Below the pieces are notes generated by a model. That model was not told where the DNA came from. It did no database searches and worked only from the letters and a program-made list of their open reading frames with translations. This document shows, in pieces, positions 33,040 to 60,686 of a stretch of DNA of 64,000 bases. Source of the DNA: an uncultured bacterium (GTDB lineage Bacteria; Auribacterota; Erginobacteria; Erginobacterales; CAZKCI01); NCBI GenBank assembly GCA_964551475.1, contig CAZKCI010000013.1, forward strand, positions 1,017-65,016, read 5' to 3'. The number at the start of each line of letters is the position of its first letter. Position 1 is the stretch's first letter. Position numbers and translations under genes: made by a program.

Positions 33040-33101
33040 GTGGGAGGGGCGTCCTCGCCCCGATCCATTTCGGCTCGGATCGCGGCCAGACGCCGCTCCC
33101 G
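33040..33101. repeat. REP-like palindromic element copy A (GTGGGAGGGGCGTCCTCGCCCCGATCC...GGATCGCGGCCAGACGCCGCTCCCGC)
   Basis: Shares >85% identity by eye with copies at 39041, 57855/57986 and half-copies at 57796 and 60648. Confidence 0.7.
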
Positions 33102-33104
33102 CAG

Positions 33105-33135
33105 AAAAATAGTGATCAGTTATCAGTGATCAGTC
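33105..33135. repeat. (A)GTGATCAGT short tandem/palindromic array adjacent to REP-like element
   Basis: tagtgatcagttatcagtgatcagt; a similar array lies at 57901-57960. Confidence 0.55.
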
Positions 33136-33236
33136 GGTCCAGTCGTGAAAATTCGTGGACGTCCTCAGCCCGGTCCGCCGAGCCATTCGCGAAGATTCGC
33201 GGTTAAATGAATTAAGCCGATCGCGATTGTCTGCCC

Positions 33237-34985
33237 ATGTCCTCCCCGGAAAAACTCGCCGCCATCGGCCGCTACCAGATCCTCGCCGAACTGGGCAGCG
33301 GGGGGATGGGGACCGTCTACAAAGGCCTCCAGCCCTCGCTGAACCGGGAGGTCGCCATCAAGATCCTCCCCCGCGGCTTCTCCTCCGACGCGGAGCTCCT
33401 TGCCCGCTTCCTCCGCGAGTCGGCGGCGATCGCCTCCCTCAACCATCCCCACATCATCCAGATCATCGACCGGGGGGAAGAGAAAGGGCTCTACTATTTC
33501 GTGATGGAGTTCATGGACGGCCCGTCGCTGGAGTCGCTCCTGAAAGAGGGGAAGCTTCCCGCTCCCCGGGCGGTGGAGATCGTCTGCCAGGTGGCCCGGG
33601 CGCTCGAGTTCGCCCACGCCCACGGGGTGATCCACCGGGACATCAAGCCCTCGAACATCCTCCTCAACCGGAACCGCGCCGTCGCCAAGCTTGCCGATTT
33701 CGGGATCGCCCGGCTGGCCGCCGAGGGGATGGACAGCACGATCACTCAGTCCCAGCGGTCGCTGGGGACGATGAACTACATGTCCCCGGAGCAGAGGCGG
33801 GACGCCGGGACGGTCGACCGCCGCTCGGACATCTACTCCCTGGGCGTGGTCTTCTACCAGATGCTGACCGGCGAGCTCCCCCTGGGGTCCTTTCGCCTCC
33901 CCAGCCACCGCGACCGGCGGATTTCGCCCCGGATCGACGGGATCATCGTGAAATGCCTGCGCGCACGCCCGGAGGAGCGCTACGCCTCCGCCGGGGAACT
34001 CCTCAAGGATCTCGCTCTGGAACGGCCCCGGGAGGTTCCGCTCAAGGAGGAACTGCGCTCCGCTTTTTCCCGCCTGACCCATCGCCGGGAGGGGTTCGAT
34101 CCGTCTCGCGGACCGGCCCTCCGCCGTTGTCTCCCCTGGTCCGCGGCGGCTCTCGTCCTCGCCGCCGCGCTCTGGTTCCTGTTCCGCGGGACCGGGGGAA
34201 GCCCGCTCCCTGCTCTCCCGGCGCGGGGAGGTTCCGCGGCGATCCAGAAGAAGCTCGCGTATGTCGAAACCATGGTCAGGGACGGGATGGCCTCCCAGGC
34301 GCTCGATGAGCTCCGGAAGATCGTCGAGGAGAATCCCGACTCCTCCCACGCCGCCGAGGCGCTTTTCCGGGCTGCTCAAATTCGCGAAGGCATGGGAAAT
34401 CACGATCAGGCGGTAGCGGATTATCTCAAGCTCGTCTCTCTCTATCCGAAATCCTCCCGCGCCCCCCAGGCCGCCTACCAGACGGCCGTCATCTATCAGC
34501 ACCGGATCAAGGATCGGGAGAAAGCGATCAGCGCCCTGCAGCGGGTTGTGGAGGGATATCCGGAGTCCGCCTTCGCCCCGCGGGCCCTCTTTCAGCTCGC
34601 CCTTTTGCAGAAGGAGCCGGATTCCAACTTTATCGAAGAAATATTCTCCTCGTCAGGGGCCGTCTCCGACCAGGCGGCGGTCCTGAGCCTGGAGAAGCTC
34701 ACCCGTGACTATCCCCGCTGCCCGGAGGTGGCGGGGGCGCTGATCGAGCTCGCCCGGATCTACGGTCCCGAGAGACTGAATCAGCTCAAGAAGTCCAACG
34801 AAGCTTTGCTGTCCCTGCGCCGGCGTTATCCCCAGACCACCTTCCCGGTCGACTATTACCTGGCGGTGAACTACGAGGCGCTGGGTGACAAGAAGACGGC
34901 GCGGGAACTGTATACGAAGTTTCTTTCCACCCACCCGACGGGGCTCGAGGCGAGGGAGGCGCAGAAGAGGATCGAGGATCGCTAA
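33237..34985 (+). CDS. Hanks-type Ser/Thr protein kinase with TM segment and C-terminal TPR repeats
   Basis: GxGxxG, VAIK, HRDIKPSNILL, DFGIA, SPE motifs; TM helix; TPR-like C-terminus. Confidence 0.9.
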   Translation: MSSPEKLAAIGRYQILAELGSGGMGTVYKGLQPSLNREVAIKILPRGFSSDAELLARFLRESAAIASLNHPHIIQIIDRGEEKGLYYFVMEFMDGPSLESLLKEGKLPAPRAVEIVCQVARALEFAHAHGVIHRDIKPSNILLNRNRAVAKLADFGIARLAAEGMDSTITQSQRSLGTMNYMSPEQRRDAGTVDRRSDIYSLGVVFYQMLTGELPLGSFRLPSHRDRRISPRIDGIIVKCLRARPEERYASAGELLKDLALERPREVPLKEELRSAFSRLTHRREGFDPSRGPALRRCLPWSAAALVLAAALWFLFRGTGGSPLPALPARGGSAAIQKKLAYVETMVRDGMASQALDELRKIVEENPDSSHAAEALFRAAQIREGMGNHDQAVADYLKLVSLYPKSSRAPQAAYQTAVIYQHRIKDREKAISALQRVVEGYPESAFAPRALFQLALLQKEPDSNFIEEIFSSSGAVSDQAAVLSLEKLTRDYPRCPEVAGALIELARIYGPERLNQLKKSNEALLSLRRRYPQTTFPVDYYLAVNYEALGDKKTARELYTKFLSTHPTGLEAREAQKRIEDR

Positions 34986-35116
34986 CTACGAATTACGAGA
35001 ATTAGAACTACGAATTGCGCGAATGACGAAGAATTCCGCCAATTGGCCGTTTTGTAGAGTTGACACGGTCGCGGCGAAGGTGGTAAAAAAATCCCAACAC
35101 TCCGGAACTTTTAGCC

Positions 35117-35929
35117 ATGCTCGCTGAATTCTTCTATCGGGCCCCCCGCTCACGCGACGAGCTCTGGCGCCTCCTCGCCGAGACCGCCGGGAAGGGGAGG
35201 ATCATGGCCGGCGGGACCGACCTCCTGGTCGGCATCCGCGACGGCTCCTCCCGCCCGTCCCTGGTGATCGACATCAAGAAGGTTCCCGGGTTCGCCCGCC
35301 TCGCTTTCGACCCGAAGACCGGCCTCTCCATCGGCCCGGCGGTGACGATCAACGCCCTTTTGGAAGATCCGGTCGTTCCCGGGAAATTCCCCGTTCTCGC
35401 CGCGGCCGCTTCCGAGCTCGCCTCCGTGCAGCTCCGGAACCGCGCCACCGTCGTCGGAAATATCGTCAACGCCTCCCCCTGCGCCGACATGGCGCCCCCG
35501 CTTCTCTGCCTCAAGGCTTCGGCGATCATCGCCTCCGCCTCCGGAGTGCGGGAGGTCCGGCTCGCCGATTTCTTCACCGGCGTGAAGAAGACGGTGCTGA
35601 AGCCCGGCGAGCTGATGGAGCGGATCCTCATTCCGGCCGAGACGGCCGGCTGCCGGGGCGGCTTCCTGAAGCTGAAGCGGATCAAGGGGCACGACCTCGG
35701 CATCATCTCCGTCGCCCTGGTCCGCCAGGGAAAAGTCCTGCGGGTGGCGATCGGATCGGCCGCGCCCACGCCCGTCCTTCTCCCCGAACTGCCCGCGTCC
35801 GCTTCGGCGGAAGCCGTCACCCGGGAAGCCCTGAAGGCGATCAAGCCGATCGACGACGTCCGCTGCACCCGGGAGTACCGGGAGTTCATGGTGGGAGTCT
35901 TCATTAAGAGACTCCTGGAGAGAAATTAA
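35117..35929 (+). CDS. molybdo-flavoenzyme FAD-binding subunit (CoxM/XdhB/CutM family)
   Basis: FAD-binding domain of the xanthine dehydrogenase/CODH family; followed by FeS and Mo subunits. Confidence 0.85.
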   Translation: MLAEFFYRAPRSRDELWRLLAETAGKGRIMAGGTDLLVGIRDGSSRPSLVIDIKKVPGFARLAFDPKTGLSIGPAVTINALLEDPVVPGKFPVLAAAASELASVQLRNRATVVGNIVNASPCADMAPPLLCLKASAIIASASGVREVRLADFFTGVKKTVLKPGELMERILIPAETAGCRGGFLKLKRIKGHDLGIISVALVRQGKVLRVAIGSAAPTPVLLPELPASASAEAVTREALKAIKPIDDVRCTREYREFMVGVFIKRLLERN

Positions 35930-35942
35930 GCAAGCGGTTCGG

Positions 35943-36019
35943 AGGTTCAGTGGTTCACGGTTCAACGGTTGACATGCTCTTTCTAACCGTGAACCGCTGA
36001 ACCGTGAACCGTTGAACCT
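35943..36019. repeat. long imperfect hairpin built from GGTTCA/TGAACC heptamer-like repeats between FAD and FeS subunit genes
   Basis: aGGTTCAgtGGTTCAcGGTTCAacggtt-loop-aaccgTGAACCgcTGAACCgTGAACCgtTGAACCt immediately upstream of the coxS-like RBS/ATG. Confidence 0.6.
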
Positions 36020-36028
36020 GGGGATACC

Positions 36029-36517
36029 ATGATCCACGTTCAACTCAAGGTAAACGGCCAGCTCTACGTCCGGGAGACGGAGGAGAACAAGACGCTTCTC
36101 CGGTTCCTCCGCGACGACCTGGGACTCACCGGGACCAAGGAAGGCTGCGGGGCGGGGGAGTGCGGCGCCTGCACCGTCATCCTGAACGGCCGCACAGTCA
36201 ACTCCTGCCTGGTGCTGGCCGTCGAAGCGGACGGAGCGGAGGTGGAGACGGTGGAAGGCGAGGCCAGAGACGGCAAGCTCTCACCTCTCCAGAAGGCCTT
36301 CGACCGCCATCACGCCGTCCAGTGCGGCTTCTGCACTCCGGGGATGCTGATGTCCTTGAAGCATCTCCTCCGCCACAACCCCAAACCTTCGGAAGAGGAA
36401 ATCCGCCGGGCGATCGAGGGGAACTTCTGCCGCTGCACCGGCTACCAGCAGATCATCGAGGCCGTCCAGGACGTCACCGGACAGCTCAAGAAACCGGGGG
36501 AGCTCCGCCATGTTTGA
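36029..36517 (+). CDS. [2Fe-2S] subunit of molybdo-flavoenzyme (CoxS/CutS family)
   Basis: GCGAGECGACTV and CGFCTPGM cluster motifs. Confidence 0.9.
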   Translation: MIHVQLKVNGQLYVRETEENKTLLRFLRDDLGLTGTKEGCGAGECGACTVILNGRTVNSCLVLAVEADGAEVETVEGEARDGKLSPLQKAFDRHHAVQCGFCTPGMLMSLKHLLRHNPKPSEEEIRRAIEGNFCRCTGYQQIIEAVQDVTGQLKKPGELRHV

Positions 36518-38948
36518 GAACCTCGACCCGCGCGATCTGGCCGTGGTCGGCCACGGCGTCCCCCGGATCGATGCGACCGAAAAGCTGACCGGGGAGGCCC
36601 TCTACACCGGCGACCTGCGGATGCCGGGGATGCTCTCCGCCGCGGTCAAGCGCTCCCCCCACGCTCGGGCGAAGATCCTCAAGATCGACGCCTCCCGGGC
36701 GGCCAAGCTCCCGGGTGTGCGCGCCATACTGACCGGGGATGAGCTCTCCTACCGGATCGGCCTCTATGTCGTCGACAAGTACGTCCTGGCCCGCGGCGTG
36801 GTCCGCCACTACGGCGAGGCGGTGGCGGCGGTGGCGGCCGACACGCTGCTCATCGCCCGCCAGGCCGTGGAGCTGATCACGGTTGACTATGAAATCCTCC
36901 CCCCCGTCCTCGACCCGGTGGAGGCCTTCCGCAAGGACGCGCCGCTGGTCCACCCGGATCTCGGCGACTACGAGTTCGTTCGGGCCGTCTTCACGCCCGT
37001 CCCGGGGACGAACATCGCCAACCACACCAAGCTCCGCAAGGGGGACGTGGAGGCGGGATTCAAGCTTTCGCACCTGATCGTGGAGAGGGAGTACACCAAC
37101 CCCTCCGTCCAGCACGTCCCGATGGAGACCCACATCGCCATCGCCGCCTGGCAGGCGGGCGACCGGGTCACGATCTGGACCTCGGCCCAGTCCGCCTTCA
37201 CCGTCCGCAACCTCTTCTGCCACGCCTTCCAGCTCCCCCGCCACCAGGTGCGGGTGCACATCCCCTACGTCGGGGGCGGCTTCGGGGGCAAGGCGGGCGT
37301 CGGTTTGGAGCCGCTGGTCGCCTGCCTCTCCCGCAAGGCCGGGGGCCGCCCGGTCAAGCTCCAGGCCACCCGCGAGGAGGAGTTCAGCCTCCTCCCCTGC
37401 CGCTCCGGACTCACCTACCGGCTGAAGACCGGCGTGGCCAAAGACGGGAAGATCATCGCCCAGAAGATGACCATGTTCTGGGACTCCGGCGCCTACGCCG
37501 ACTACGCGGTCAACGTCACCCGGGCCTCCGGCTACTCCGCCTCCGGCCCCTACGAGATCCCCAACGCCTGGGTGGACGCCTACAGCATGTACACCAACAA
37601 GGCCTACGGGACCGCCTACCGGGGCTTCGGCCACGTCGAGTTCTCCTGGGGGGCGGAGCGGCAGATGGACCTGGTCGCCCAGGCGATCGGGATGGATCCC
37701 CTCCAGTTCCGCCTGCTCAACGCCCTGAAGCCGGGATCGATCACGCTGACCGGGGAGAAGATTCGGGAGCACACCGGCTCCGTCACCAAGTGCCTGGCCG
37801 CGGCGGCGAAAGCGGTCAACTACGGGACGCTGACCGCGGCCGAGAAGGCCCGGGAGAAGCGGACCGGGATGAAGATCGGCAAGGCGGTGGCCGCCCTCCA
37901 GAAGGCCCCGGCCATGCCCCCCTACACCGGCACCGTAGTCATCCTCAAGATGAACGAGGACGGGACGGTGATCGCGAACTTCTCGCTCACCGAGATCGGG
38001 GCCGGGACCTACACCTCGGTGGCCCAGATCATCGCCGAGCGCCTCCGCTTCCCCCTCTCCAAGCTCAAGATCGCCTTCGAGATCGACACCGACCGCGACC
38101 CCTACGACTGGCAGACCGTCGCCTCCAAGGGGCTTTTTCTCTCCGGGAACGCCGGGATCCTGGCCGCCGACGACCTGATCGCCAAGGCCTACGAGGTGGC
38201 CGGGGCGGTCTTGCGGGCCCAGCCCTGCGACCTCGACCACGACGACGAGAAGATCTTCGTCCGCCACCACCGGGAGAAGGCGGTGTCCTTCAAGGAGATC
38301 GCGGTCGGCTACGCCTTTCCGGACGGGAACGCGATCGGCGGACCCCTGGTCGGCGTCGGCCGCTACATCGCCCAGGGGCTCAGCAATCTCAACAAGGAGA
38401 CCGGGCAGGGGCTCCCCGCCCTCGACTGGACCTACGGGGCACACGGATTGATCGTCGAGGCGAACCCGAAGACCGGCGAATACAACGTGATCAAGGTCGC
38501 CTCCGCCTTCGACGTCGGCCGGGCGATCAACCCGGCCGCGGTCCGGGGCCAGGCGATCGGGGGGATGCTCCAGGGGCTCGGGACCGCGATGTGCGAGGGC
38601 TATATCTACGACAAGCAGGGCCATCTCCTGAACCCCTCCTTCACCGACAACAAAATCCCCACCTCGATGGATTTGCCCGAGGAGGTGGAGTCGATGGTGG
38701 TGGAGACGCCCCAGACCGACGGGCCCTACGGGGCGCGCGGGGTGGGCGAGCACTCGATGATCGCGGTCTGCGCCGCGCTCGGCAACGCCCTGAAGAACGC
38801 CCTCGGGATCGAGCTCACCCACATGCCGATCCGTTTCGAGGACGTCTGGCGGGCGCTGAAGAAGAAGCCGGCGATCGACAACTGGATCACCAAGACCCCC
38901 GCCGGGTCCTGCCGCTCGGCCCCGGTTCTCCAGGACGACAAGAAATAG
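36510..38948 (+). CDS. molybdopterin-binding large subunit (aldehyde oxidase/xanthine dehydrogenase/CODH family)
   Basis: 812 aa with typical MoCo-binding domain order; overlaps the FeS gene by 8 nt. Confidence 0.9.
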   Translation: MFENLDPRDLAVVGHGVPRIDATEKLTGEALYTGDLRMPGMLSAAVKRSPHARAKILKIDASRAAKLPGVRAILTGDELSYRIGLYVVDKYVLARGVVRHYGEAVAAVAADTLLIARQAVELITVDYEILPPVLDPVEAFRKDAPLVHPDLGDYEFVRAVFTPVPGTNIANHTKLRKGDVEAGFKLSHLIVEREYTNPSVQHVPMETHIAIAAWQAGDRVTIWTSAQSAFTVRNLFCHAFQLPRHQVRVHIPYVGGGFGGKAGVGLEPLVACLSRKAGGRPVKLQATREEEFSLLPCRSGLTYRLKTGVAKDGKIIAQKMTMFWDSGAYADYAVNVTRASGYSASGPYEIPNAWVDAYSMYTNKAYGTAYRGFGHVEFSWGAERQMDLVAQAIGMDPLQFRLLNALKPGSITLTGEKIREHTGSVTKCLAAAAKAVNYGTLTAAEKAREKRTGMKIGKAVAALQKAPAMPPYTGTVVILKMNEDGTVIANFSLTEIGAGTYTSVAQIIAERLRFPLSKLKIAFEIDTDRDPYDWQTVASKGLFLSGNAGILAADDLIAKAYEVAGAVLRAQPCDLDHDDEKIFVRHHREKAVSFKEIAVGYAFPDGNAIGGPLVGVGRYIAQGLSNLNKETGQGLPALDWTYGAHGLIVEANPKTGEYNVIKVASAFDVGRAINPAAVRGQAIGGMLQGLGTAMCEGYIYDKQGHLLNPSFTDNKIPTSMDLPEEVESMVVETPQTDGPYGARGVGEHSMIAVCAALGNALKNALGIELTHMPIRFEDVWRALKKKPAIDNWITKTPAGSCRSAPVLQDDKK

Positions 38949-39040
38949 ACGAGGAGTTCATACCTTTTATCGCCGGGAATCGCCCTGGCCCCCGCGGGGC
39001 GATTTTTGTTTTCGGGCCGGTGAGGAAGCGGGAGACAAAA

Positions 39041-39102
39041 GTGGGAGGGGCGTCTCGCCCCGATCCGGGTTGGCTGGGATCGCGGCGGGACGCCGCTCCC
39101 AC
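39041..39102. repeat. REP-like palindromic element copy B
   Basis: GTGGGAGGGGCGTCTCGCCCCGATCCGGGTTGGCTGGGATCGCGGCGGGACGCCGCTCCCAC. Confidence 0.7.
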
Positions 39103-39202
39103 GGGGATAACTCTACGCCCGCATTTTTGACCTTGCGGATTTCCCCGTAGCTCCGGCTTTTCTCATTGCTATCTCATTCAACCCTATCTCCAGGAGTATC
39201 CC

Positions 39203-40342: not shown

Positions 40343-40474
40343 GAGCGATGGCCAAACGGGCGGAGCGGGTTCTCAATCGTTGATCAATCGCAGAGCGCAA
40401 AGAGCATAGCGCCTGAAAACAGCCCGGCTGGGCCGCTCGCAACGCTATGCGCTTTGCTCTATGCGCTCTGCTTG

Positions 40475-42150: not shown

Positions 42151-42155
42151 GGAAT

Positions 42156-42340
42156 GGGGTATGGTGAATGGTGAATAGTGAATGGGGAATGGATAATTGC
42201 GAATCGCGGCGAAGGATCCCGGATGAGCTGTAGGCCGCCCGATCACAGATCGGGTCTACACTGCGTCTGACCTAGACATCGTTCTCAGGAAGGACCAGTG
42301 TTTGTCCCGGCGCGGTTTCCATTCACCATTCACTATTCAC
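42156..42340. repeat. inverted (GGTGAAT)3-type repeats flanking a 130-nt spacer between convergent genes
   Basis: ggtgaatggtgaatagtgaatgg at 42163-42185 and its near-perfect reverse complement ccattcaccattcactattcacc at 42318-42340. Confidence 0.6.
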
Positions 42341-42344
42341 CACG

Positions 42345-50937: not shown

Positions 50938-50984
50938 CCGCCGGCTTCAGCCTGCGTTCTGTTCTTGCGAAAGCGTCCGTTCGC

Positions 50985-52930: not shown

Positions 52931-53105
52931 CCCGCCGCGCGATCTCAGATTTCAGATCTGAGATTTCAAATCTGAAATCTGAGGGCTGAAATCCATGATT
53001 CGCGATCCACGATCTGAAATCTCAAATCTGAGATCTGAAATGAGAGATCAGAGATCCACAATCCGCGATTCGAAATCCTCAATCCTCAATCCCTAAGGAG
53101 ATCGC
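52931..53105. repeat. complex palindromic/tandem repeats of AGATTTCAGATCTGAAATCT-type units between nfeD and flotillin genes
   Basis: gatctcagatttcagatctgagatttcaaatctgaaatctgag ... gatctgaaatctcaaatctgagatctgaaatgagagatcagagatcc. Confidence 0.6.
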
Positions 53106-53106
53106 C

Positions 53107-54585
53107 ATGAACCCAGCCGCGAGCGGCGGGTCGGCCACCGCCGGCCTCTTCCTCACCGTCATCTTCGCCCTGATCCTCATCGTCATCCTCACCACGATCC
53201 TCCGGCGCTACAAGAGGTGCCCCTCCAACAAGATCCTGGTCATCTACGGGAAGACCGCCGGCGGCGCCTCCCGCTGCATCCACGGCGGGGCGGCCTTCAT
53301 CTGGCCCCTGATCCAGGCCTACGACTACCTGGACCTGGAGCCCTTCGTCGTCCCCATCGACCTCTCCAACGCCCTCTCCCAGGAGAACATCCGGGTCAGC
53401 GTGCCGACCACGGTCACCGCCGCGATCTCCAACGAAGCCGGGATCATGCAGAACGCGGCCATCCGCCTCCTGGGACTCTCCGCCCAGCAGATCCAGACGC
53501 TGGCCCAGGACATCATCATCGGCCAGATGCGCGCCATCATCGCCACGATGAAGATCGTGGACATCAACCGCGACCGCCAGGCCTTCATGGCCAAGGTCAA
53601 CGAAGCGGTCGCGGTGGAGCTCGAGAAGATCGGGTTGGCGGTGATCAACGTCAACATCCGCGACCTGGACGACGAGTCGGGCTACATCAAGGCGATCGGG
53701 CGCCAGGCCGCCGCCGAGGCGGTCAACCAGGCCAACATCGACGTCGCCGAACAGGACAAACTCGGCCAAATGGGCGTGGCGACGCGCCAGCGCGACCAGC
53801 GGATCGCCGTGGCCGCGGCCACCGCCGACGCGCAAGTGGGCGAGGCGAACGCCGACCGCTCCAAGCGCCAGCAAGTGGCCAAGCTCGACGCCGAGGCGGT
53901 GCAGTCGGAGACCGTGGCCAACGCCAACAAGGCCTCCTACCACGCCAACCAGAAGGTGGCCGAGGAGGAAGCCCGCAACCGGGGGGAGTCCGCCGCCCGC
54001 GAGGCCTCCGGGGCCATCCGTGTCGCGCAGGAGATCGCCGAGAAGAAGGCCGAAGACGCCAAGGCGCTGCGCGAGCAGTCGCGCTTGAACGCCGAGGTCG
54101 TCGTCCCCGCCGACGCGGCCAGGAAACGCCTGATCATCGAATCCGAGGCCCAGCGCGACCAGTCGGTCCTGATCGCCAAGGGACAGGCCGACGCCCTTCT
54201 CGCCAAGATGACCGCGGAAGGGAAGGGACAGCAGGCGGTCCTCGACGGCAAGGCCGAAGGCTACCGCAACCTGGTCCAGTCGGCGGGTGAGCCCCAGATG
54301 GCCGCCTCCCTCCTCCTGATCGAGAAGCTTGTCGAGATCGCCCACATCCAGGCCCAGGCGATCCAGGACCTGCCCATCCAGAAGATCGTCGTCTGGGACG
54401 GCGGCGGAGAGGCGGGCGGGATGTCGAACCTGGGCAAGAAGCTGATGGGCGTGCTCCCCCCCATGCACGAGCTCGCCAAGCAGGTCGGCCTCGATCTCCC
54501 CGAGTATTTAGGAAAGCTCACGGAGGAGGCGAAGAAATCTAGCGGCCAGCAGCCGCCCAAAGGGAAGGGCGAAGGGGCGAAATAG
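53107..54585 (+). CDS. flotillin-like SPFH/band-7 protein
   Basis: N-terminal TM, SPFH domain, long Ala/Glu/Gln-rich coiled-coil C-terminus. Confidence 0.85.
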   Translation: MNPAASGGSATAGLFLTVIFALILIVILTTILRRYKRCPSNKILVIYGKTAGGASRCIHGGAAFIWPLIQAYDYLDLEPFVVPIDLSNALSQENIRVSVPTTVTAAISNEAGIMQNAAIRLLGLSAQQIQTLAQDIIIGQMRAIIATMKIVDINRDRQAFMAKVNEAVAVELEKIGLAVINVNIRDLDDESGYIKAIGRQAAAEAVNQANIDVAEQDKLGQMGVATRQRDQRIAVAAATADAQVGEANADRSKRQQVAKLDAEAVQSETVANANKASYHANQKVAEEEARNRGESAAREASGAIRVAQEIAEKKAEDAKALREQSRLNAEVVVPADAARKRLIIESEAQRDQSVLIAKGQADALLAKMTAEGKGQQAVLDGKAEGYRNLVQSAGEPQMAASLLLIEKLVEIAHIQAQAIQDLPIQKIVVWDGGGEAGGMSNLGKKLMGVLPPMHELAKQVGLDLPEYLGKLTEEAKKSSGQQPPKGKGEGAK

Positions 54586-54589
54586 GAGG

Positions 54590-54665
54590 ACGGTTCAAGA
54601 CGTTGAAATCGTTGAAGACGTTGAAATCGATGAAGCCGTTGAAGCCGTTGAAGCAGATGGAACGT
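54590..54665. repeat. tandem 18-bp (GACGTTGAAATCGTTGAA) x2 and 9-bp (GCCGTTGAA) x2 direct repeats
   Basis: Read directly from the sequence after the flotillin stop. Confidence 0.55.
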
Positions 54666-54681
54666 CCTTCGATGCTTTTCG

Positions 54682-54741
54682 TTTTGTAGCGTCGCCTCTC
54701 CAGAGGGACGGCGTCGTCACGGGAGTGACGACGCTACAAAA
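54682..54741. other. palindromic structured element TTTTGTAGCGTCG...CGACGCTACAAAA with an alternative inner hairpin GTCGTCAC-GGGA-GTGACGAC
   Basis: 13-bp outer arms and 8-bp inner arms share the CGAC bases, so the two foldings are mutually exclusive; no U-run after the stem. Confidence 0.4.
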
Positions 54742-54801
54742 GGCACTCGGATTTTGTTGTAGGCCGGAACTGCGTTCCGGCGCGGGTTAAGAAGGCGAAG
54801 A

Positions 54802-57708
54802 GTGAAGACTGCGATGATCCCCGCCGTGTTCCTGGTCGCTCTTCTCGTCGTCAGCCTTGCTCCTGCCGCGCCGGCGCCCGCTCCTTCCGCTTCCCCCGCC
54901 CTCGCCGCGCTGGAGGTCGAGATCCTCTCCCCCCTGGGCAAACCCATCCCCCGGGGCAAGGCGGTCCTCTTCTCGATCCAGACCGGGGAGGACCTCCCGC
55001 CCTGCGCGGGCTACCAGGAGCTCCCGGCGGTCGAGTTCTCCGAGGGGAAGCTGGCCCAGGACCTCCCGTCCGGACTCTATCGCCTGGAGATCGTCGCCGA
55101 CGGCTGGCAGGGGGCGGTGGAGGAGGAGCTGGCCCTTTCGCCCGGAGAGAAGAAGAAAGTCCCGCTCCGCCTGGAGCCGGGTTTCGTTATCGCCGGACAG
55201 GTGACCGACGAGGGCGGCCTCCCCCTGGCCGGGGCGTCGGTTTCCGTGAGTTTCCGAGGGAAAGGGCGCACCTGGTTCATGTCGGACGCGGAACAAGCGA
55301 CGACCGATGGGGACGGCCGCTTCCGTCTCTCCAGCCTCGCCGAGGGGCTTCATCGGGTGAAGGCGTCGATGGAGGGGCGGGTGGGGGTTTCGCTCGACGA
55401 CGTCGCCACCGGGGCCGAGGACCTCGCCCTGGTATTGAAAAAAGGATGGACGATCAAGGGCCGACTGGCCGGCTTTCCCCCCGGCTTGAGCCAGGAGCTG
55501 GAAGTGGATCTCAAGCGGGACCGGTCGTACGACTACAAGCGGATGACCTGCGACGGGGAGGGGAATTTCGCCCTCAACGACCTCGAGAACGGCACGTACG
55601 ACATCAGGATCCACGGCGATGAATGGGTCTCCGACTGGTCGCGCCAGGTCAAAGCCGAGGAGGAAAGCCGGGCCCGGCCGATCGCGATCGAAGTCTTCAA
55701 GGCGGCGAAGATATCGGGGCGTGTGATCGATTCGCGGACCGGCGAAATCATTCGAAACGCATACCTCAAGCTCGGCCAGGACGATTTGACCTGGCCGAGC
55801 ATCGCCTCCCGGCGCGACGACACGGGGGAATACACCTTCTTCTCGCTCCTTCCGGGCGCTTACGACCTGCGGGTGTCGATGGACTTCTCTTTCGATAAGC
55901 CGCTTGCCTCCCGGGAGGTGGCCGTCAAGGCCGGAGAAGAGTTGAAGGGAGTCGACTTCCGGATCGACCCGGGGCGAAAGGCGTCCATCAGCGGGACGAC
56001 GATGGACGAGAGGGGAGAGCCCGTGGCCGGAGCCAAAGTCCGCCTCTATTCCCGCGAGGCCGGGGCGAAGGGCGGACGGATGCAGATGGCGGGAGAGGCG
56101 GCGGAAGCGGACGCGGCCGGTGATTTCCTGGTCGCGGACTATATCTCCCGCGCCACCGAGTTCGTCCTCTCCGCCGAGAAGGACGGCTTCGCCCCCGCCC
56201 GGAGCGATCCCCTCGTCCTCTCACCCGACTCCCCCTCCGCCGCCGGCGCGGTTCTGGTCTTCGACGCCGGCCTTTCCTTCGAGGTCGAGGTTTCGGACGC
56301 GGAGGGGATGCCCGTGTACCAGGCCCGGGTCGAGCTGGAAAAGGACTCCGTCCGGGACGGCAACCGCTCTGATTGGGCCTCGCCCTTTTTTCGGGAGAAG
56401 AAGCTCGCCGACGCCCACGGCCGCTGCCTTTTCGACCACCTCGCCCCCCTCCCCTATTCCCTGACCGTGAACCGGAAGGGTTTCGTCGAGCACACGGAGA
56501 AGGTGACCTTCGCCCCCGGCGAGACCGGGAAAAAGGTGGCGGTGGCGCTCCAGGCGGGGAGAGCGGTGACCGTCACGGTTGCGGACGCCGCCGGCGAGCC
56601 GATCGCCGGGGCCCGTGTCTCCGCCGCCGCGGAAGACGACAGGAAGTCCGTGCTCTACCTGAGCCAACGGTCCGGACACGAGACTGACGCGGCGGGCGTC
56701 TGCCGGATCGAGAACCTCCCCGCCGGACCCTTGCGGGTTTCGGTTTCGGCGGAGGGGTATGTCGCCTTGACCAGAATCCGTGTCGCTCCGGATGAGGAAT
56801 CGGCCGCGGTGGTCCTGGCGGCGGGAGGGGCGATCGCCGGGCGGGCCCTGACCGCCGAGGGGAACCCCCCGAAATGGGTACACGCCAGCGCCCAGAAGAA
56901 GAGGGAGGACCCCTTCGACTTCGGCTTCCAAGGCGGCGAGAAGCGGGATTTGGGCGAGGGGCGTTTCCGGATCGAAGGCCTGGAGCCCGGTCCCTACGAT
57001 CTCGTCGTCGACGCGGACGGCTGGGGACGGAAGACGATCGGCGGACTGGTGGTCCAAGCCGGGGAGACGGCCGAGGCGGGCGAGTTCCGCCTCGAGCCGG
57101 AGGCTCTTCTCTCCGGGACGGTCCTCGACCCGGCTCTGCAGCCGCTGGGCAAGGCCATGGCCTCGCTCAAGGGCCCCCTCTCCTCCCGCTTCTTCGCCGC
57201 CGCCGACGACGACACCGGCCGCTTCGAACTGGGGAGGCTCCCCGCGGGGAACTACACGCTGACCGTCTCCGCCCCGAACTGCCGGCGCGAGGAGATCGCC
57301 GGGATCTCACTCTCCGCCGGGGAGAAGAAGGAGTTCCCCCCGGTCGTCCTCAGGGATCTGACGCCGGAGGAGAAGGAGCAGGAGAAGGCGCGGAACCGTT
57401 TCCTCCCCTCCCTCGGCATCGCCTGGGCGGACTCCTCGTTCAACAAGAGCGGAGGGTTCCCGGTGGGCGAGGTGAAGAGCGGATCGGCCGCCGAGAAGGC
57501 CGGCATCCGTCCCGGTGACACCATCGTCCAGGTCGACGGGAAGGATTTCGCGGAAGACCCGGGGGCTTTCTGGCGCGGGATCTTCGCCCGGCCGGGGACC
57601 AAGGTCAAGCTCACGGTCCGGCGCAAAGAGGGTGGGGCGACCGACGAGGTCGAGATCGTCATGCCCCCGTGGGATTACGACGAGATGATCCGGAAGATGG
57701 AGTTCTGA
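54802..57708 (+). CDS. large secreted protein with multiple carboxypeptidase-regulatory-like (CarbopepD_reg/Cna-B-like) beta-sandwich repeats and C-terminal PDZ domain
   Basis: Signal peptide; recurring (I/V)(A/S)G(R/Q)V.D..G.P(L/V)AGA.V motif; PDZ GFPVGEVKSGSAAEKAGIRPGDTIVQVDG. Confidence 0.75.
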   Translation: MKTAMIPAVFLVALLVVSLAPAAPAPAPSASPALAALEVEILSPLGKPIPRGKAVLFSIQTGEDLPPCAGYQELPAVEFSEGKLAQDLPSGLYRLEIVADGWQGAVEEELALSPGEKKKVPLRLEPGFVIAGQVTDEGGLPLAGASVSVSFRGKGRTWFMSDAEQATTDGDGRFRLSSLAEGLHRVKASMEGRVGVSLDDVATGAEDLALVLKKGWTIKGRLAGFPPGLSQELEVDLKRDRSYDYKRMTCDGEGNFALNDLENGTYDIRIHGDEWVSDWSRQVKAEEESRARPIAIEVFKAAKISGRVIDSRTGEIIRNAYLKLGQDDLTWPSIASRRDDTGEYTFFSLLPGAYDLRVSMDFSFDKPLASREVAVKAGEELKGVDFRIDPGRKASISGTTMDERGEPVAGAKVRLYSREAGAKGGRMQMAGEAAEADAAGDFLVADYISRATEFVLSAEKDGFAPARSDPLVLSPDSPSAAGAVLVFDAGLSFEVEVSDAEGMPVYQARVELEKDSVRDGNRSDWASPFFREKKLADAHGRCLFDHLAPLPYSLTVNRKGFVEHTEKVTFAPGETGKKVAVALQAGRAVTVTVADAAGEPIAGARVSAAAEDDRKSVLYLSQRSGHETDAAGVCRIENLPAGPLRVSVSAEGYVALTRIRVAPDEESAAVVLAAGGAIAGRALTAEGNPPKWVHASAQKKREDPFDFGFQGGEKRDLGEGRFRIEGLEPGPYDLVVDADGWGRKTIGGLVVQAGETAEAGEFRLEPEALLSGTVLDPALQPLGKAMASLKGPLSSRFFAAADDDTGRFELGRLPAGNYTLTVSAPNCRREEIAGISLSAGEKKEFPPVVLRDLTPEEKEQEKARNRFLPSLGIAWADSSFNKSGGFPVGEVKSGSAAEKAGIRPGDTIVQVDGKDFAEDPGAFWRGIFARPGTKVKLTVRRKEGGATDEVEIVMPPWDYDEMIRKMEF

Positions 57709-57795
57709 TCGCAGGGAATTTCACATATAGGCATAGAGGGCATGAAGGAGATGATGATCGGTTACTGATTACTTCTTCTTCTGTTACTTCTTCCC

Positions 57796-57900
57796 TGTGG
57801 GAGGGGCATTCCTGCCTGCCCCGATTACGATTACATGTATATAAAAATCGGGGCCCCGATCCAGGCCGTCCCGGATCGCGGCGGGGACGCCGCTCCCACA
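57796..57900. repeat. REP-like element: variant half-copy (TGTGGGAGGGGCATTCCTGCC...) followed by full 3' half (...CCCGATCCAGGCCGTCCCGGATCGCGGCGGGGACGCCGCTCCCACA)
   Basis: Matches copies A/B/D. Confidence 0.65.
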
Positions 57901-57960
57901 AAACGACAGTGATCAGTAATCAGTCATCAGTGATCAGTAACTGATCACTGTTTACTGATC
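57901..57960. repeat. TGATCAGT / ACTGATCA palindromic short-repeat array between two REP-like copies
   Basis: agtgatcagtaatcagtcatcagtgatcagtaactgatcactgtttactgatcactg. Confidence 0.55.
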
Positions 57961-57985
57961 ACTGCTTTTTCTTTTACTGGTTCTT

Positions 57986-58049
57986 GTGGGAGGGCCGTCT
58001 CGGCCCGATCCAAGCCGTCCCGGATCGCGGCGGGGACGCCGCTCCCACA
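57986..58049. repeat. REP-like palindromic element copy D
   Basis: GTGGGAGGGCCGTCTCGGCCCGATCCAAGCCGTCCCGGATCGCGGCGGGGACGCCGCTCCCAC. Confidence 0.7.
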
Positions 58050-58153
58050 ATGGACTAAGATAACCTTCCCCCCTTCCCCCGCCGCATCTGGACACCCCGG
58101 ATAGACTATGCTATTATAGATGGGTTGCTAACGCACGGATAAGGAGGCAAGAG

Positions 58154-59476
58154 ATGAGAAAGATACTGATCAGCGCCATCGTGTCCATCGCCATGGTGAT
58201 CGCCGCGTCGCCGGCGAAGAGCGAGCCTTTCGACATTCAGTCCGCGATCGACCGGGCCAACCCGGGCGACGTGATCCAGGTCCCGGCCGGCGCCTACCAG
58301 GGCAACTACAAGATGCGGGACGGCGTGGTTCTCTCCGGCGCCGGCGCCTCCTCCACCGTTCTCGACGGGAACCTGATGGGCCCCGTGATCGACGGCGCGG
58401 ACGGGGCGATCGTCAAAGGTTTCACCGTCACCCGCGGCGTCGAGGGGATCAAGACCAACGGCCACCTGATGGGCGTCTTCAACTGCGTCGTGGCCGGGAA
58501 CGCCGGCGTGGGCATCTGCACCGGCGGGGGCGACGCGGTCATTGTCAACAACGTCGTCCGCGACAACCAGGGCAAGGCCGGCATCGAGGCCTCCCGCTCC
58601 TACATCCTCGCCTCCAACAACACGATCTGCGGGAACACGGCGGGCGTGATGTTCTGGAACACGCCGTCCGCGAAGCTCGCGAACAACATCCTGGCCCTGA
58701 ACGGGGCGGGCCTTCTCCTCGAAACCTCGACGCCGGAGATCGACAACAACGATTTCTGGTCGAACACCCGGGACTTCGACCCCTCCCCGGTCGGAGGGCG
58801 TTGCCTCTACGACAACCCCCTCTTCGCCGGCATCGATCTCCGCGACTTCAGCCTGCCCGAGGAATCGCCGCTCCGGACGCTGGGGACGCCGGTGGAGGGC
58901 ATCCCCGCCGAACTTGCCGCCCGCGTCGGCGCCGACCTCTCGTACGAGGTCGATGTCGCGCTCGGCCAGTCACTGGTGGAAACGGTCCGGGCCAAGAGAG
59001 GCGCCGCGGTCTCCTCCATCCTCTATGAACTCTCCGACCGCGTCGGCTCCTTCCTGGTCACGGTGAAGTCGAGCCGCGCTGCCTTCAAGATCACCTCTTC
59101 CGCGCCGTCCACGGCGATCGACCAGGTCAGCGCCTTCGATGCCGTGAGCAACGAGGACCTATTGAACAGCCTGACCGGCGAGACGCCCGCCTCGGTGGAT
59201 ATCCGGGGCGTCGAGGGGAAAAGCTACGTCGAGCAGGACGGGCGCTACGTGATGGAGTCCGTCTTCTCCGACCCCGCCTCGTATTTCGAGGACGCCGGCG
59301 CCCTGAATTTTGTCCGGAAGACCAACCTCGGCCATATCGCCGTCGCCATCCCCGAGGGATGCTCGGTGGCGAGCGCCTCCCCGTCGGGCTCGGTCGATCT
59401 CGAGAAGGGGGTTGTCACCTTCGAGAATCCGAAGGGGGAGAACATCGAGATCAAACTGGTCTTCTCCTGCCGCTGA
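58154..59476 (+). CDS. secreted right-handed parallel beta-helix repeat protein (pectin-lyase fold / NosD-like)
   Basis: Signal peptide; periodic N-x-(V/I)-x-x-N / GxxG beta-helix rungs (VVAGNAGVGICTGGGDAVIVNNVVRDNQG...). Confidence 0.7.
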   Translation: MRKILISAIVSIAMVIAASPAKSEPFDIQSAIDRANPGDVIQVPAGAYQGNYKMRDGVVLSGAGASSTVLDGNLMGPVIDGADGAIVKGFTVTRGVEGIKTNGHLMGVFNCVVAGNAGVGICTGGGDAVIVNNVVRDNQGKAGIEASRSYILASNNTICGNTAGVMFWNTPSAKLANNILALNGAGLLLETSTPEIDNNDFWSNTRDFDPSPVGGRCLYDNPLFAGIDLRDFSLPEESPLRTLGTPVEGIPAELAARVGADLSYEVDVALGQSLVETVRAKRGAAVSSILYELSDRVGSFLVTVKSSRAAFKITSSAPSTAIDQVSAFDAVSNEDLLNSLTGETPASVDIRGVEGKSYVEQDGRYVMESVFSDPASYFEDAGALNFVRKTNLGHIAVAIPEGCSVASASPSGSVDLEKGVVTFENPKGENIEIKLVFSCR

Positions 59477-59489
59477 TCTCCGTGGAGAT

Positions 59490-59574
59490 ACGCGGACCTG
59501 AAAGGTCCGCGTCTACGGATTTCAGGAGGCATGTTTTCGTAGCCGCGGACCCTTTCGGGTCCGCGGCTTTTTTC
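59490..59574 (+). terminator. tandem related hairpins (ACGCGGACC-TGAAA-GGTCCGCGT; GCCGCGGACCC-TTTC-GGGTCCGCGGC plus TTTTTT)
   Basis: The second hairpin (59542-59567) is followed by a T6 run, a canonical intrinsic terminator for the upstream gene. Confidence 0.65.
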
Positions 59575-59664
59575 ACCGGGGATGCTTGCGCTATCGCGAA
59601 GGATTCGGCTTCCTGATATGATCATCCGGAAGCCAATTCATAAAATTTCCGAAGGAAATTTTAT

Positions 59665-60570
59665 ATGTTCGACGTCGTCGGCATCGGCCGCTCCTGTATC
59701 GATCACATCGCGATCCTGAAATCGCTCCCCCGGGTGGATACCAAGGTCCCGGTCGTCCGCTATGCGATGGCGGGCGGCGGCCAGTCCTCGACCGCGATGG
59801 TCGCTCTTGCCCGCCTGGGACTGAAGACAGCCTTTGTCGGCGTGGTGGGCGACGACGCTCTGGGCGAGATGATCGTCGCCGAGCTCAAGTCCGAGGGGGT
59901 GGACACCTCGGGGGTGAAGGCGATCGCGAAAGTCCCCACGCCGGTCGCTCTCATCCTGGTCGAGGAGAAGAAGGGGACGCGGACGATCGCCTATCTCGAC
60001 AGCATGGAAGGGCGATTGAACCGGAAGACCGCCGATCTGGACGTCGTCCTCTCCTCCCGTCTCCTGATGGTCGATCCTTACGGTACGCGCCTGGCGGTGG
60101 AGATCGCCAGGGAGATCAAGGAAAGGGGGATCGTCACCGTCTACGACGCCGAGCAGGAGACGGGGGGATTCTCCCGGATGCTCTCTCTCGCCGATTATCT
60201 GGTCGCCTCGCGGGACGTCTCTTCGACGCTCGGCGCGAAGACGTCCCGGGCGGCGCTGAAAAAGCTCTATTCCTTCGGTCCCCGGGCCGCCGTGGTCACG
60301 CTGGGGAAGGGGGGGTGCATCGCCCTCTCTCCGGCCGGCTTTGTCCGCACACCGGCCTTCCGTGTCGACGTGGTCGACTCGACCGCCGCCGGCGATGCCT
60401 TCCACGCCGGTTTCGCCTACGGCGTCTTCCAGGGCTGGCCGATCGACCGGACACTGGTCTTCGCCAACGCCCTGGGCGCACTGGTCTGCCGCGGCCTGGG
60501 CGGGCGGAAGACACTGCCGACGCGGAAAGAGGCGCTGGCTTTCATCCGGCGTTCCTATCCCGCTTTCTAA
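59665..60570 (+). CDS. PfkB-family carbohydrate/nucleoside kinase (ribokinase-like)
   Basis: N-terminal GxGxxxxD and C-terminal DSTAAGDAFHAGF (DTxGAGD) motifs. Confidence 0.85.
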   Translation: MFDVVGIGRSCIDHIAILKSLPRVDTKVPVVRYAMAGGGQSSTAMVALARLGLKTAFVGVVGDDALGEMIVAELKSEGVDTSGVKAIAKVPTPVALILVEEKKGTRTIAYLDSMEGRLNRKTADLDVVLSSRLLMVDPYGTRLAVEIAREIKERGIVTVYDAEQETGGFSRMLSLADYLVASRDVSSTLGAKTSRAALKKLYSFGPRAAVVTLGKGGCIALSPAGFVRTPAFRVDVVDSTAAGDAFHAGFAYGVFQGWPIDRTLVFANALGALVCRGLGGRKTLPTRKEALAFIRRSYPAF

Positions 60571-60647
60571 CCGAAACAGGATGCATCGCCGGGGAGGGAA
60601 GCGCTGATCGCTGAGAGCTGATCGCTGCGTCTGCTTCCGCTGGTTCT

Positions 60648-60686
60648 CTGTGGGAGGGGCATTCCTGCCCCGATCCACCGACCGGC
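60648..60686. repeat. REP-like element half-copy (CTGTGGGAGGGGCATTCCTGCCCCGATCC...)
   Basis: Same variant as 57796; preceded by GCTGATCGCTG x2. Confidence 0.55.

What the first reader, a model, noticed from the sequence alone, without database searches (positions are those of the whole stretch)
33040..60686. Dispersed roughly 60-bp REP-like palindromic element (GTGGGAGGGGCGTCtCGCCCCGATCC-N10-GGATCGCGGCGGGACGCCGCTCCCAC), five to six copies, often coupled to TGATCAGT arrays
Near-identical copies lie at 33040-33101, 39041-39102, 57855-57900 and 57986-58049. Variant half-copies (GGGGCATTCCTGCC) lie at 57796-57826 and 60648-60686. All are intergenic. The sequence is self-complementary (GTGGGAG/CTCCCAC, GGCGTC/GACGCC, CGATCC/GGATCG), so each forms a long hairpin in RNA or a cruciform in DNA. 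Two loci also carry (A)GTGATCAGT mini-arrays. Six occurrences in 64 kb is a high density. It suggests a REP/BIME-like or MITE-like family, possibly mobilised by a REP-associated tyrosine transposase encoded elsewhere, or acting as mRNA stabiliser/terminator modules.
Basis: seen in the sequence. Interest (0 to 1): 0.6.

Follow-up and report, generated by a model that had tools for sequence, protein, structure and literature searches.

The report
REP doublets (REPINs) with a RAYT transposase
The repeated 62-base palindromes are ordinary bacterial REP elements arranged as inverted pairs (REPINs), and close relatives of this uncultured bacterium carry the matching REP-associated tyrosine transposase flanked by the same pairs, so this is a new example of a well-known kind of small mobile DNA.

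Summary
The window holds three full 62-63 nt elements (33040-33102, 39041-39102, 57986-58048), one 5'-truncated element (57853-57899) and two single arms (57797-57825, 60650-60676). All are intergenic, and none would be expected by chance.

Each element is two inverted REPs of about 26 nt with heads outward: GTGGGA, 6-bp stem, 3-4 nt loop, 6-bp stem, GAT. The spacer is almost always 10 nt. Covariation supports the two small arm hairpins, not the long inter-arm hairpin, which carries two conserved mismatches.

The same doublet occurs at 68 metagenome loci and in a related MAG, always in unique flanks and without target-site duplications. Two contigs of the same lineage encode an intact 169-aa REP-associated tyrosine transposase (NCBIfam NF047646, 136 bits) flanked on both sides by these doublets. 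One of them comes from a sample that also yielded a contig 100% identical to part of this window.

The terminator reading is not.

GTNATCA heptamer arrays are a separate dispersed family, only modestly enriched beside REPs (p = 0.017).

Verdict: a new member of a known kind, of low to moderate interest.

The parts
33040..33102 (+). REPIN A. Type-1 arm at 33040-33066 (GTGGGA-GGGGCG-TCCT-CGCCCC-GATCC), 10-nt spacer, then a decayed type-2 arm at 33077-33102 (head CTCCCGC, stem 5/6).
   Evidence: 61.6 bits. Lies 54 nt after the stop of the MscS-FHA gene 31661-32986.
39041..39102 (+). REPIN B, canonical. Type-1 arm at 39041-39066, spacer GGGTTGGCTG, type-2 arm at 39077-39102.
   Evidence: 68.4 bits. 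DNA fold -28.8 kcal/mol, z -7.2. Lies downstream of a terminator-like hairpin plus T-run at 38988-39000.
57797..57825 (+). Single type-1 variant arm (stem GGGGCA/TGCCCC with a 2-nt TG insertion). It is followed by a 27-nt AT-rich stretch at 57826-57852.
   Evidence: 12 bits, E 0.016.
57853..57899 (+). 5'-truncated REPIN: the 3' half of the type-1 stem, the spacer and an intact type-2 arm. It is a local duplicate of the right part of REPIN D.
   Evidence: 46.6 bits, model positions 17-63. family D20: 47 nt, 98% identical to 58004-58050.
57986..58048 (+). REPIN D. The type-1 arm has a compensated stem variant GGGCCG/CGGCCC. Spacer AAGCCGTCCC, then a type-2 arm.
   Evidence: 65.1 bits. A Logan contig of the same sequence starts inside this element.
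60650..60676 (+). REP singlet E, a type-1 variant (GTGGGA-GGGGCA-TTCC-TGCCCC-GATCC). It lies 31 nt upstream of the start of gene 60708-61637.
   Evidence: 22.7 bits, model positions 1-31. The Logan contig ends exactly at 60676.
33111..33134 (.). GTNATCA heptamer array (3.4 units) 9 nt after REPIN A. It belongs to a separate dispersed repeat family.
57907..57964 (.). GTNATCA heptamer array followed by its inverted complement (a palindromic array), between the truncated REPIN and REPIN D.
   Evidence: 87% complementary to 33105-33134 (pair I11).

Best explanation
The elements are REPINs: pairs of inverted REP sequences that behave as non-autonomous mobile DNA.

Anatomy. Each REP is a short stem-loop (6-bp G+C-rich stem, 3-4 nt loop). 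It is tagged on its 5' side by (Y)T-GTGG-GA and on its 3' side by GAT. Two different REP subtypes sit heads-outward, 10 nt apart: type 1 with stem GGGGCG and type 2 with stem GCGGCG.

Proposed mechanism. The genome encodes, elsewhere, a REP-associated tyrosine transposase (RAYT). This is an HUH/Y1 enzyme of the IS200/IS605 superfamily and is itself flanked by the same doublets. By analogy with E. coli TnpA-REP, it binds each REP hairpin in single-stranded DNA and cuts near the GT(A/G)G tag. It then moves or copies the doublet without making target-site duplications. Singlets and truncated copies (C and E, and the decayed arm of A) are decay or recombination products.

What is shown: the anatomy, the dispersal, the hairpin covariation, the absence of target duplications, and the RAYT-REPIN linkage in the lineage.

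What is inferred: that the RAYT lies in the same genome as this window, and that it actually mobilises these copies.
For: 1. Anatomy. Nine REP arms in the window fit GTGGGA-stem6-loop-stem6-GAT.

2. Doublet structure. In 380 kb of related loci plus the window, 50 doublets were found. All are heads-out, 40 have a spacer of exactly 10 nt, and nearly all pair a type-1 arm with a type-2 arm.

3. Hairpin selection. Sites were chosen only on the fixed flanks GTGGGA...GAT. Of 178 distinct sites, 156 have a perfect 6/6 stem, spread over at least 9 different stem sequences. On alignment A1 the arm hairpins are 99.8% paired, with 22 double-sided changes (0/500 shuffles). The inter-arm helix is 89.3% paired, no better than shuffles (154/500), and two positions are unpaired in 41/42 rows.

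4. Dispersal. There are 68 metagenome loci with the exact type-1 arm and 5 loci in MAG CAZOYW01. Flanks are unique. A short-read assembly of this very region breaks at two of the copies.

5. No target-site duplication. 44 of 48 doublets have no abutting direct repeat, the same as shuffled partners.

6. The transposase.
- L041 355-864 is a 169-aa ORF. It scores 136 bits on NCBIfam NF047646 'REP-associated tyrosine transposase' (cutoff 80, E 8.8e-40) and matches Pfam Y1_Tnp. It has doublets on both sides.
- L100 2770-3279 is an intact 169-aa homologue, 79% identical. It has doublets at 2541-2630, 2664-2705 and 3283-3345 (70.7 bits).
- L100 comes from JGI sample 3300037485. That sample also yielded a contig 100% identical to window 59201-64000.
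- The only match among solved structures is E. coli TnpA-REP, 4ER8, with the HUH and Tyr motifs aligned.

7. Same lineage. The tetranucleotide signature of these loci correlates 0.95-0.98 with the window, against 0.66-0.89 for other taxa that carry the REP.

8. Precedent. The P. fluorescens SBW25 group I REP 16-mer is GTGGGAGGGGGCTTGC (PMC3116915, Table 1). TnpA-REP cleaves and recombines REP/BIME in vitro (PMC3333891).
Against: - No RAYT is in the window. The window's contig cannot be proven to share a genome with the L100 contig: same sample and similar composition only.
- No insertion or excision event was observed. No orthologous empty site was found among the fetched loci.
- The copy-number difference of REPIN units upstream of the RAYT among four assemblies is confounded by a scaffold gap and possible assembly collapse.
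- Exact-arm counts per assembly are modest: about 3-15 in the JAEAM* assemblies. The family may therefore be far smaller than those of Pseudomonas.
Confidence: 0.85

Rival explanations
1. The hairpins are primarily host RNA elements: 3'-end mRNA stabilisers or transcription terminators or attenuators, kept by selection on gene expression rather than spread by a transposase.
For: - Strong predicted hairpins.
- Among classifiable doublets, 24 lie between co-directional genes and 6 between convergent genes, but only 2 between divergent genes. Most are therefore downstream of a stop codon.
- All four window doublets have the same orientation as the flanking genes.
- REPs are known to stabilise upstream mRNA in E. 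coli (own knowledge; reviewed in PMC3733652).
Against: - No T-run follows the hairpin. The flank is T-rich on the 5' side and purine-rich on the 3' side. The terminator scan does not call any full element.
- Copy B lies after a separate terminator-like hairpin.
- Orientation relative to transcription is only 16:8.
- Distance from the stop codon ranges from 2 to 283 nt.
- This reading does not explain the conserved GTGGGA tag, the RAYT linkage or the two-subtype doublet.
- It is compatible with exaptation of some copies, so it is not exclusive of the main explanation.
Confidence: 0.1
2. They are classical MITEs: deletion derivatives of a DDE-transposase insertion sequence, with terminal inverted repeats, mobilised by cut-and-paste.
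For: Small size, terminal inverted symmetry, intergenic dispersal.
Against: - No target-site duplications.
- Each 'terminal repeat' is itself a compensated stem-loop.
- The gene flanked by the repeats is an HUH/Y1 RAYT, not a DDE transposase.
Confidence: 0.02
3. The REPIN and the adjacent GTNATCA heptamer array form one composite element, or the arrays are the preferred landing site of the REPIN.
For: - Both GTNATCA arrays of the window abut REPs.
- In the pooled loci, 6 of 16 GTNATCA arrays lie within 60 nt of a REP, against 5 of 51 other period-7/8 arrays (Fisher p = 0.017).
- An array-like stretch also follows the doublet next to the RAYT in L100.
Against: - Ten of 16 arrays lie more than 60 nt from any REP; in the separate motif census, 8 of 14 distinct clusters lie 100-2100 nt away.
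- Most doublets have no array.
- Junction distance and side vary, so there is no fixed composite boundary.
- The loci were chosen for containing REPs, and the numbers are small.
Confidence: 0.1

Closest known systems
REPIN-RAYT systems, e.g. Pseudomonas fluorescens SBW25 group I REPINs (Bertels & Rainey 2011, PMC3116915)
   Same: - Two inverted REPs form the replicative unit.
- The head motif is the same: the SBW25 GI 16-mer is GTGGGAGGGGGCTTGC, and here the arm starts GTGGGAGGGGCGTCTC.
- The elements are extragenic and occur in unique flanks.
- Singlets occur as decay products.
- The RAYT gene is flanked by the same REPs.
   Different: - Much more compact: 62-63 nt in total with a 10-nt spacer, against a 71-bp spacing between the two 16-mers in SBW25.
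- The two arms are systematically different subtypes, giving two conserved inter-arm mismatches.
- The host is an uncultured, unclassified lineage, not a pseudomonad.
- Mobility has not been observed here.
E. coli REP/BIME with TnpA-REP (Ton-Hoang et al., PMC3333891; structure 4ER8, PMC3479197)
   Same: - Pairs of REPs of two different types in inverted orientation with a short linker, like the Y/Z REPs of BIMEs.
- The associated enzyme is an HUH/Y1 protein. 4ER8 is the only PDB sequence match of the RAYT found here (E 9.3e-7).
   Different: - The tag is GTGG rather than GTAG.
- The stems are short and perfect, 6 bp, without the bulge of E. coli REPs.
- No conserved linker motifs such as IHF sites were seen.
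- RAYT identity to the E. coli enzyme is low.
GTAG-1/GTAG-2 REP families of the GTAG superfamily (Di Nocera et al. 2013, PMC3733652)
   Same: - Architecture: tag, two unpaired 'GW' bases (here GA), a 5-13 bp stem, a short loop and a conserved 3-bp tail (here GAT).
- Head-to-head heterodimers and sub-families with alternative complementary stem residues.
- A GTGG variant of the tag is already recorded there (O. terrae GTAG-20).
   Different: The specific stem and loop sequences and the fixed 10-nt spacer. That survey reports partners 1-5 bp apart in some dimers and 20-100 bp apart in most.
IS200/IS605 insertion sequences
   Same: Subterminal hairpins recognised by an HUH/Y1 transposase, and no target-site duplication.
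   Different: The elements here carry no gene. The transposase is a RAYT-clade enzyme: 136 bits on NF047646 against 35 bits on the IS200 model NF033573, which has a cutoff of 55.

Membership tests
REP (GTAG-type repetitive extragenic palindrome) | Short (20-40 nt) imperfect palindrome forming a stem-loop, tagged at one end by an unpaired GTAG-like tetranucleotide. | tested here: met
   Arms are 26-27 nt: GTGG + GA + 6-bp stem + 3-4 nt loop + 6-bp stem + GAT. 156 of 178 flank-selected sites have perfect stems in at least 9 stem variants. The GTGG tag variant is documented in PMC3733652.
REP (GTAG-type repetitive extragenic palindrome) | Multi-copy and predominantly extragenic. | tested here: met
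   Nine arms in the window, all intergenic. 176 REP hits in 380 kb of related loci. 68 metagenome loci and 5 MAG loci carry exact arms. The whole-genome count for this organism was not obtainable.
REPIN | Two REPs in inverted orientation with a characteristic spacing, over-represented relative to singlets. | tested here: met
   50 doublets, all heads-out, with a 10-nt spacer in 40 of 50. There are 83 singlets against 50 doublets, a ratio of 1.7 and an upper bound, below the threshold of 2 used in PMC3116915.
REPIN | The doublet can fold into a hairpin in ssDNA or RNA. | tested here: inconclusive
   It folds at -21.6 to -28.8 kcal/mol, z -3.6 to -7.2. However, covariation supports only the two arm hairpins. 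The inter-arm helix equals the shuffled controls and has two conserved mismatches.
REPIN | Observed mobility (excision or insertion events, presence/absence polymorphism). | not testable with these tools
   No reads are available. No orthologous empty site was found among the fetched loci. The copy-number difference next to the RAYT is confounded by assembly.
RAYT-associated repeat (REPtron) | A RAYT gene (HUH + catalytic Tyr, Y1_Tnp) flanked by the same REPs in the same genome. | tested here: inconclusive
   Met for the lineage: L041 and L100 RAYTs (NF047646, 136 bits; intact HUH and Y motifs) are flanked on both sides by the same doublets. Not proven for the very genome of the window. L100 is from the same sample as a contig identical to the window, with a tetranucleotide correlation of 0.95. 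No RAYT is in the window.
BIME (E. coli-type mosaic element) | Alternating REP types joined by defined linker motifs (some bind IHF), often in long tandem clusters. | tested here: not met
   Two REP types alternate, but the 10-nt spacer has no conserved motif. Window copies are single doublets apart from one local duplication. Tandem clusters were seen only next to the RAYT.
MITE of a DDE transposon | Terminal inverted repeats plus a target-site duplication. | tested here: not met
   44 of 48 doublets have no abutting direct repeat, the same as shuffled partners.
Intrinsic (Rho-independent) terminator | G+C-rich hairpin immediately followed by a U-tract. | tested here: not met
   The 3' flank is purine-rich (+1 is A or G in 48 of 48), and T is on the 5' side. 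The scans do not call the elements as terminators.

The most novel reading that the evidence does not exclude
In this uncultured lineage almost every intergenic region carries its own 7-9 nt tandem array, often followed by the inverted complement. REPINs sit preferentially beside one dispersed class of these arrays (GTNATCA). The most novel reading not excluded is that such palindromic heptamer arrays expose single-stranded DNA or hairpins that serve as landing pads for RAYT-driven REPIN insertion, or are themselves generated by it. That would link two repeat systems so far treated separately.
Probability: 0.1. Interest if true: 0.55.

Novelty: new member of a known kind. Interest (0 to 1): 0.3.

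Why it matters
It extends the REPIN-RAYT system to an uncultured, unclassified high-GC lineage known only from metagenomes.

It gives an unusually compact and clean example: 62 nt, a fixed 10-nt spacer, and two distinct arm subtypes. The comparative data separate selection on the individual REP hairpins from selection on the long doublet hairpin. That is useful for thinking about what the RAYT actually recognises.

Practically, these elements explain the assembly breaks in this population. They can also serve as lineage markers for binning.

It does not open a new biological question.

Tried and rejected
- My first REP-finding regular expression was mis-registered and found nothing. It was corrected.
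- Rfam at gathering thresholds found no family in the window.
- I looked for orthologous empty sites for the window's insertions among all fetched loci. There were none.
- Taxonomic placement failed:
  - A literature search for the JAEAM* and GCA_016294925 accessions found nothing.
  - Homologues of the 812-aa xanthine-dehydrogenase subunit are about 75% identical in MAGs labelled Hydrogenedentes, Eremiobacterota, Spirochaetes, Riflebacteria and others, so they are uninformative.
- RAYT-locus polymorphism: assemblies differ by one ~114-nt REPIN-containing unit upstream of the RAYT. One has a run of N, and collapse of tandem repeats cannot be excluded, so this was not used as evidence of mobility.
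- Terminator function is rejected.
- A DDE-type MITE is rejected.
- The long hairpin as the selected structure is rejected on covariation.
- Recent cross-phylum transfer. The exact 27-nt type-2 arm occurs in isolates or MAGs of Chromatiales, Methyloversatilis, Verrucomicrobiia and others. I did not adopt transfer as the explanation, for two reasons. The RAYT next to it in the Verrucomicrobiia MAG is only 39% identical to the one here. And the search returned only exact matches, so a few coincidences among many GTAG-1-like families are plausible.

Full report
**Observation**

The 26-nt right arm has no chance expectation in shuffles, yet matches three times.

I built a sequence-only profile from 42 non-identical doublets and ran it over the whole window with filters off. 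It found:
- three full copies: 39041-39102 (68.4 bits), 57986-58048 (65.1 bits) and 33040-33100 (61.6 bits);
- one 5'-truncated copy: 57853-57899 (46.6 bits, model positions 17-63);
- two single arms: 60650-60679 (22.7 bits) and 57797-57825 (12 bits).

The only other hit below E 0.01 is 32596-32657(-) (13.2 bits, E 0.0066). It lies inside the MscS-FHA coding sequence and was not examined further; I take it for a chance match.

All copies lie between + strand genes:
- MscS-FHA and a Ser/Thr kinase;
- a xanthine-dehydrogenase subunit and a metallophosphoesterase;
- a CarboxypepD_reg/PDZ protein and a NosD-like protein;
- PfkB and an Lcl_C protein.

**Anatomy**

Each ~62-nt element is two inverted units of 26-27 nt with heads outward, separated by 10 nt. 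Each unit reads GTGGGA, 6-nt stem, 3-4 nt loop, 6-nt stem, GAT(CC).

The left arm (type 1) has the stem GGGGCG/CGCCCC. The right arm (type 2) has GCGGCG/CGCCGC. The variants GGGCCG/CGGCCC and GGGGCA/TGCCCC also occur in the window, each with both sides changed.

The copy at 33040-33102 has a decayed right arm. The 57797-57900 locus is a variant single arm, then a 27-nt AT-rich stretch, then a truncated doublet. The spacer and right arm of that doublet are 98% identical to the neighbouring copy 149 nt away (family D20), so it is a local duplication.

**Provenance and relatives**

The window is part of JGI metagenome contig Ga0393266_0000039 (89 kb). Identical sequence occurs in a second JGI sample and in a Logan assembly. 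The Logan contig spans exactly 58024-60676. It starts inside one copy and ends at the last base of another, as expected if the assembler broke at a multi-copy repeat.

A scan of one genome per species with the exact type-2 arm found 24 loci. Five lie in one MAG (CAZOYW01), which carries the full doublet at about 90% identity. The others are in Thiohalocapsa, Methyloversatilis, Alcanivorax, Verrucomicrobiia and deltaproteobacterial genomes.

A metagenome scan with the lineage-specific type-1 arm found 68 loci on many contigs. The tetranucleotide composition of these loci correlates 0.95-0.98 with the window, against 0.66-0.89 for the other taxa. They therefore represent the same lineage.

I could not name that lineage.

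**Family properties**

In these loci plus the window I counted 50 doublets. All are heads-out, and 40 have a spacer of exactly 10 nt. Nearly all pair a type-1 arm with a type-2 arm. All sit in unique flanking sequence.

To avoid selecting on pairing, I collected sites defined only by the fixed flanks GTGGGA...GAT. Of 178 distinct sites, 156 have a perfect 6/6 stem, spread over at least nine different stem sequences. About a dozen poorly paired sites remain, roughly the number I would expect by chance from my own back-of-envelope estimate (about 7, not a tool result).

On the doublet alignment the two arm hairpins are 99.8% paired, with 22 double-sided changes (0 of 500 shuffles reach this). 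The long inter-arm helix is 89.3% paired, no better than shuffles (154 of 500). It has two positions unpaired in 41 of 42 rows.

The long hairpin does fold in silico, at -21.6 to -28.8 kcal/mol. Even so, selection is visible only on the individual REP stem-loops.

The flanks show T at -1 in 42 of 48 doublets and a purine at +1 in 48 of 48. There are no target-site duplications: 44 of 48 have none, the same as shuffled partners.

**The transposase**

No RAYT is encoded in the window.

In L041, a 1.1-kb contig of the lineage, a 169-aa ORF at 355-864 is flanked on both sides by the same doublets. It scores 136 bits on NCBIfam NF047646 'REP-associated tyrosine transposase' (cutoff 80) and matches Pfam Y1_Tnp.

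A homologue search led to L100, a 50-kb contig from JGI sample 3300037485. That sample also yielded a contig identical to window 59201-64000. L100 encodes an intact 169-aa RAYT, 79% identical to that of L041. It carries HIH and YCYYNPVRKGLV motifs. It has doublets upstream and a 70.7-bit doublet 4 nt after its stop codon.

The orthologous locus in four other assemblies has the same arrangement.

The only solved structure matching this protein by sequence is E. coli TnpA-REP, 4ER8.

A RAYT-like gene next to the same type-2 REP also occurs in a Verrucomicrobiia MAG, with a REP inserted in frame. It is only 39% identical to the one here.

**Interpretation**

This is a REPIN population with its RAYT, as defined by Bertels & Rainey (PMC3116915). 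Their group I REP in P. fluorescens SBW25 even shares the head GTGGGAGGGG.

The architecture is tag + GA + stem + loop + stem + 3-bp tail. It matches the GTAG-1/2 families of Di Nocera et al. (PMC3733652), who also record GTGG tags and heterodimers.

E. coli TnpA-REP cleaves and recombines REPs in single-stranded DNA (PMC3333891). I infer the same mechanism here but have not shown it.

**Rivals**

- Terminator role. This is not supported. No T-tract follows the hairpin, the scans do not call the elements, and copy B follows a separate terminator-like hairpin.
- mRNA stabilisation. This remains possible for some copies. Most doublets lie downstream of stop codons (24 co-directional, 6 convergent, 2 divergent), but orientation relative to transcription is only 16:8.
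- DDE-type MITE. This is excluded by the absence of target duplications and by the nature of the associated gene.

**The TGATCAGT arrays**

Both arrays in the window (33111-33134 and 57907-57964) abut REPs.

GTNATCA arrays are nevertheless an independent dispersed family in the lineage. They are often (GTGATCA GTAATCA)n followed by the inverted complement. There are 14 distinct arrays in 444 kb, and 8 of them lie 100-2100 nt from any REP.

Compared with other period-7/8 arrays, they are enriched within 60 nt of a REP: 6 of 16 against 5 of 51, p = 0.017. With all period 6-9 arrays as the control, p = 0.0012.

The numbers are small and the loci were chosen for containing REPs. Junctions are not fixed either. 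I regard the coupling as suggestive only.

**Verdict**

This is a new member of a known kind, of low to moderate interest.

Noticed in passing
window 19369-19403, 24296-24318, 24410-24452, 35936-36018, 42152-42204 with 42319-42342, 52941-53092, 54593-54654, 60602-60627, 63224-63241: Many of the longer intergenic regions of the 18-64 kb part carry a tandem array of 7-9 nt units. Each locus has its own unit (GGTTCAAG, CGTCCATTT, GGTTCAAC, GAATGGT, GATCTGA, GTTGAAGCC, CGCTGAT, TGTCAAAT and others). Several are followed by the inverted complement, so they can form long hairpins. This resembles cyanobacterial STRR heptamers (own knowledge). The function is unknown.
   Followed up: partly
window 63210-63271 and L025 15789-15850 (same contig, just outside the window): A 62-nt near-perfect palindrome built on TGTCAAAT repeats occurs twice at 100% identity. 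One copy lies downstream of trpA and the other between trpB and trpF, so they bracket trpA-trpB.
   Followed up: no
window 1-17000: This region has much lower G+C (0.44-0.59, against about 0.65 elsewhere). Its tetranucleotide correlation with the rest of the window is only 0.66. It holds two giant ORFs with internal repeats: 3735-9875(-) of 2046 aa and 9882-16373(-) of 2163 aa. It has no REPs. It is probably a horizontally acquired island.
   Followed up: no
L025 16484-16510 (-), same contig beyond the window end: A further REP arm (GTGGAA-GCGGCA-TTCC-TGCCGC-GATCC) lies inside the called 3' end of the IGPS (trpC) gene. It is either an intragenic REP or an over-extended gene call.
   Followed up: no
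L018 5552-7432 (-), Verrucomicrobiia MAG JBEKFI010000007.1: One open frame reads through a BioF-like aminotransferase, REP copies and a RAYT-like domain. The RAYT-like domain itself carries an in-frame REP insertion between its HUH and Tyr motifs (translated GSRRGRRSH).
   Followed up: partly
L001-L024: The exact 27-nt type-2 REP arm GTGGGAGCGGCGTCCCCGCCGCGATCC occurs in isolates and MAGs of distant groups: Thiohalocapsa, Ectothiorhodospiraceae, Methyloversatilis, Alcanivorax, Verrucomicrobiia and deltaproteobacterial MAGs. In some it forms dense clusters, for example 16 arms in 1.5 kb of L005.
   Followed up: partly
L071 6716-7300 (+), JAEAME010000082.1: A second, divergent RAYT-like ORF (HYHFV ... 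YVHQNPVHHGVV) lies in the same lineage. It scores 79.4 bits on NF047646, just under the cutoff of 80, and is 26% identical to the main RAYT.
   Followed up: no
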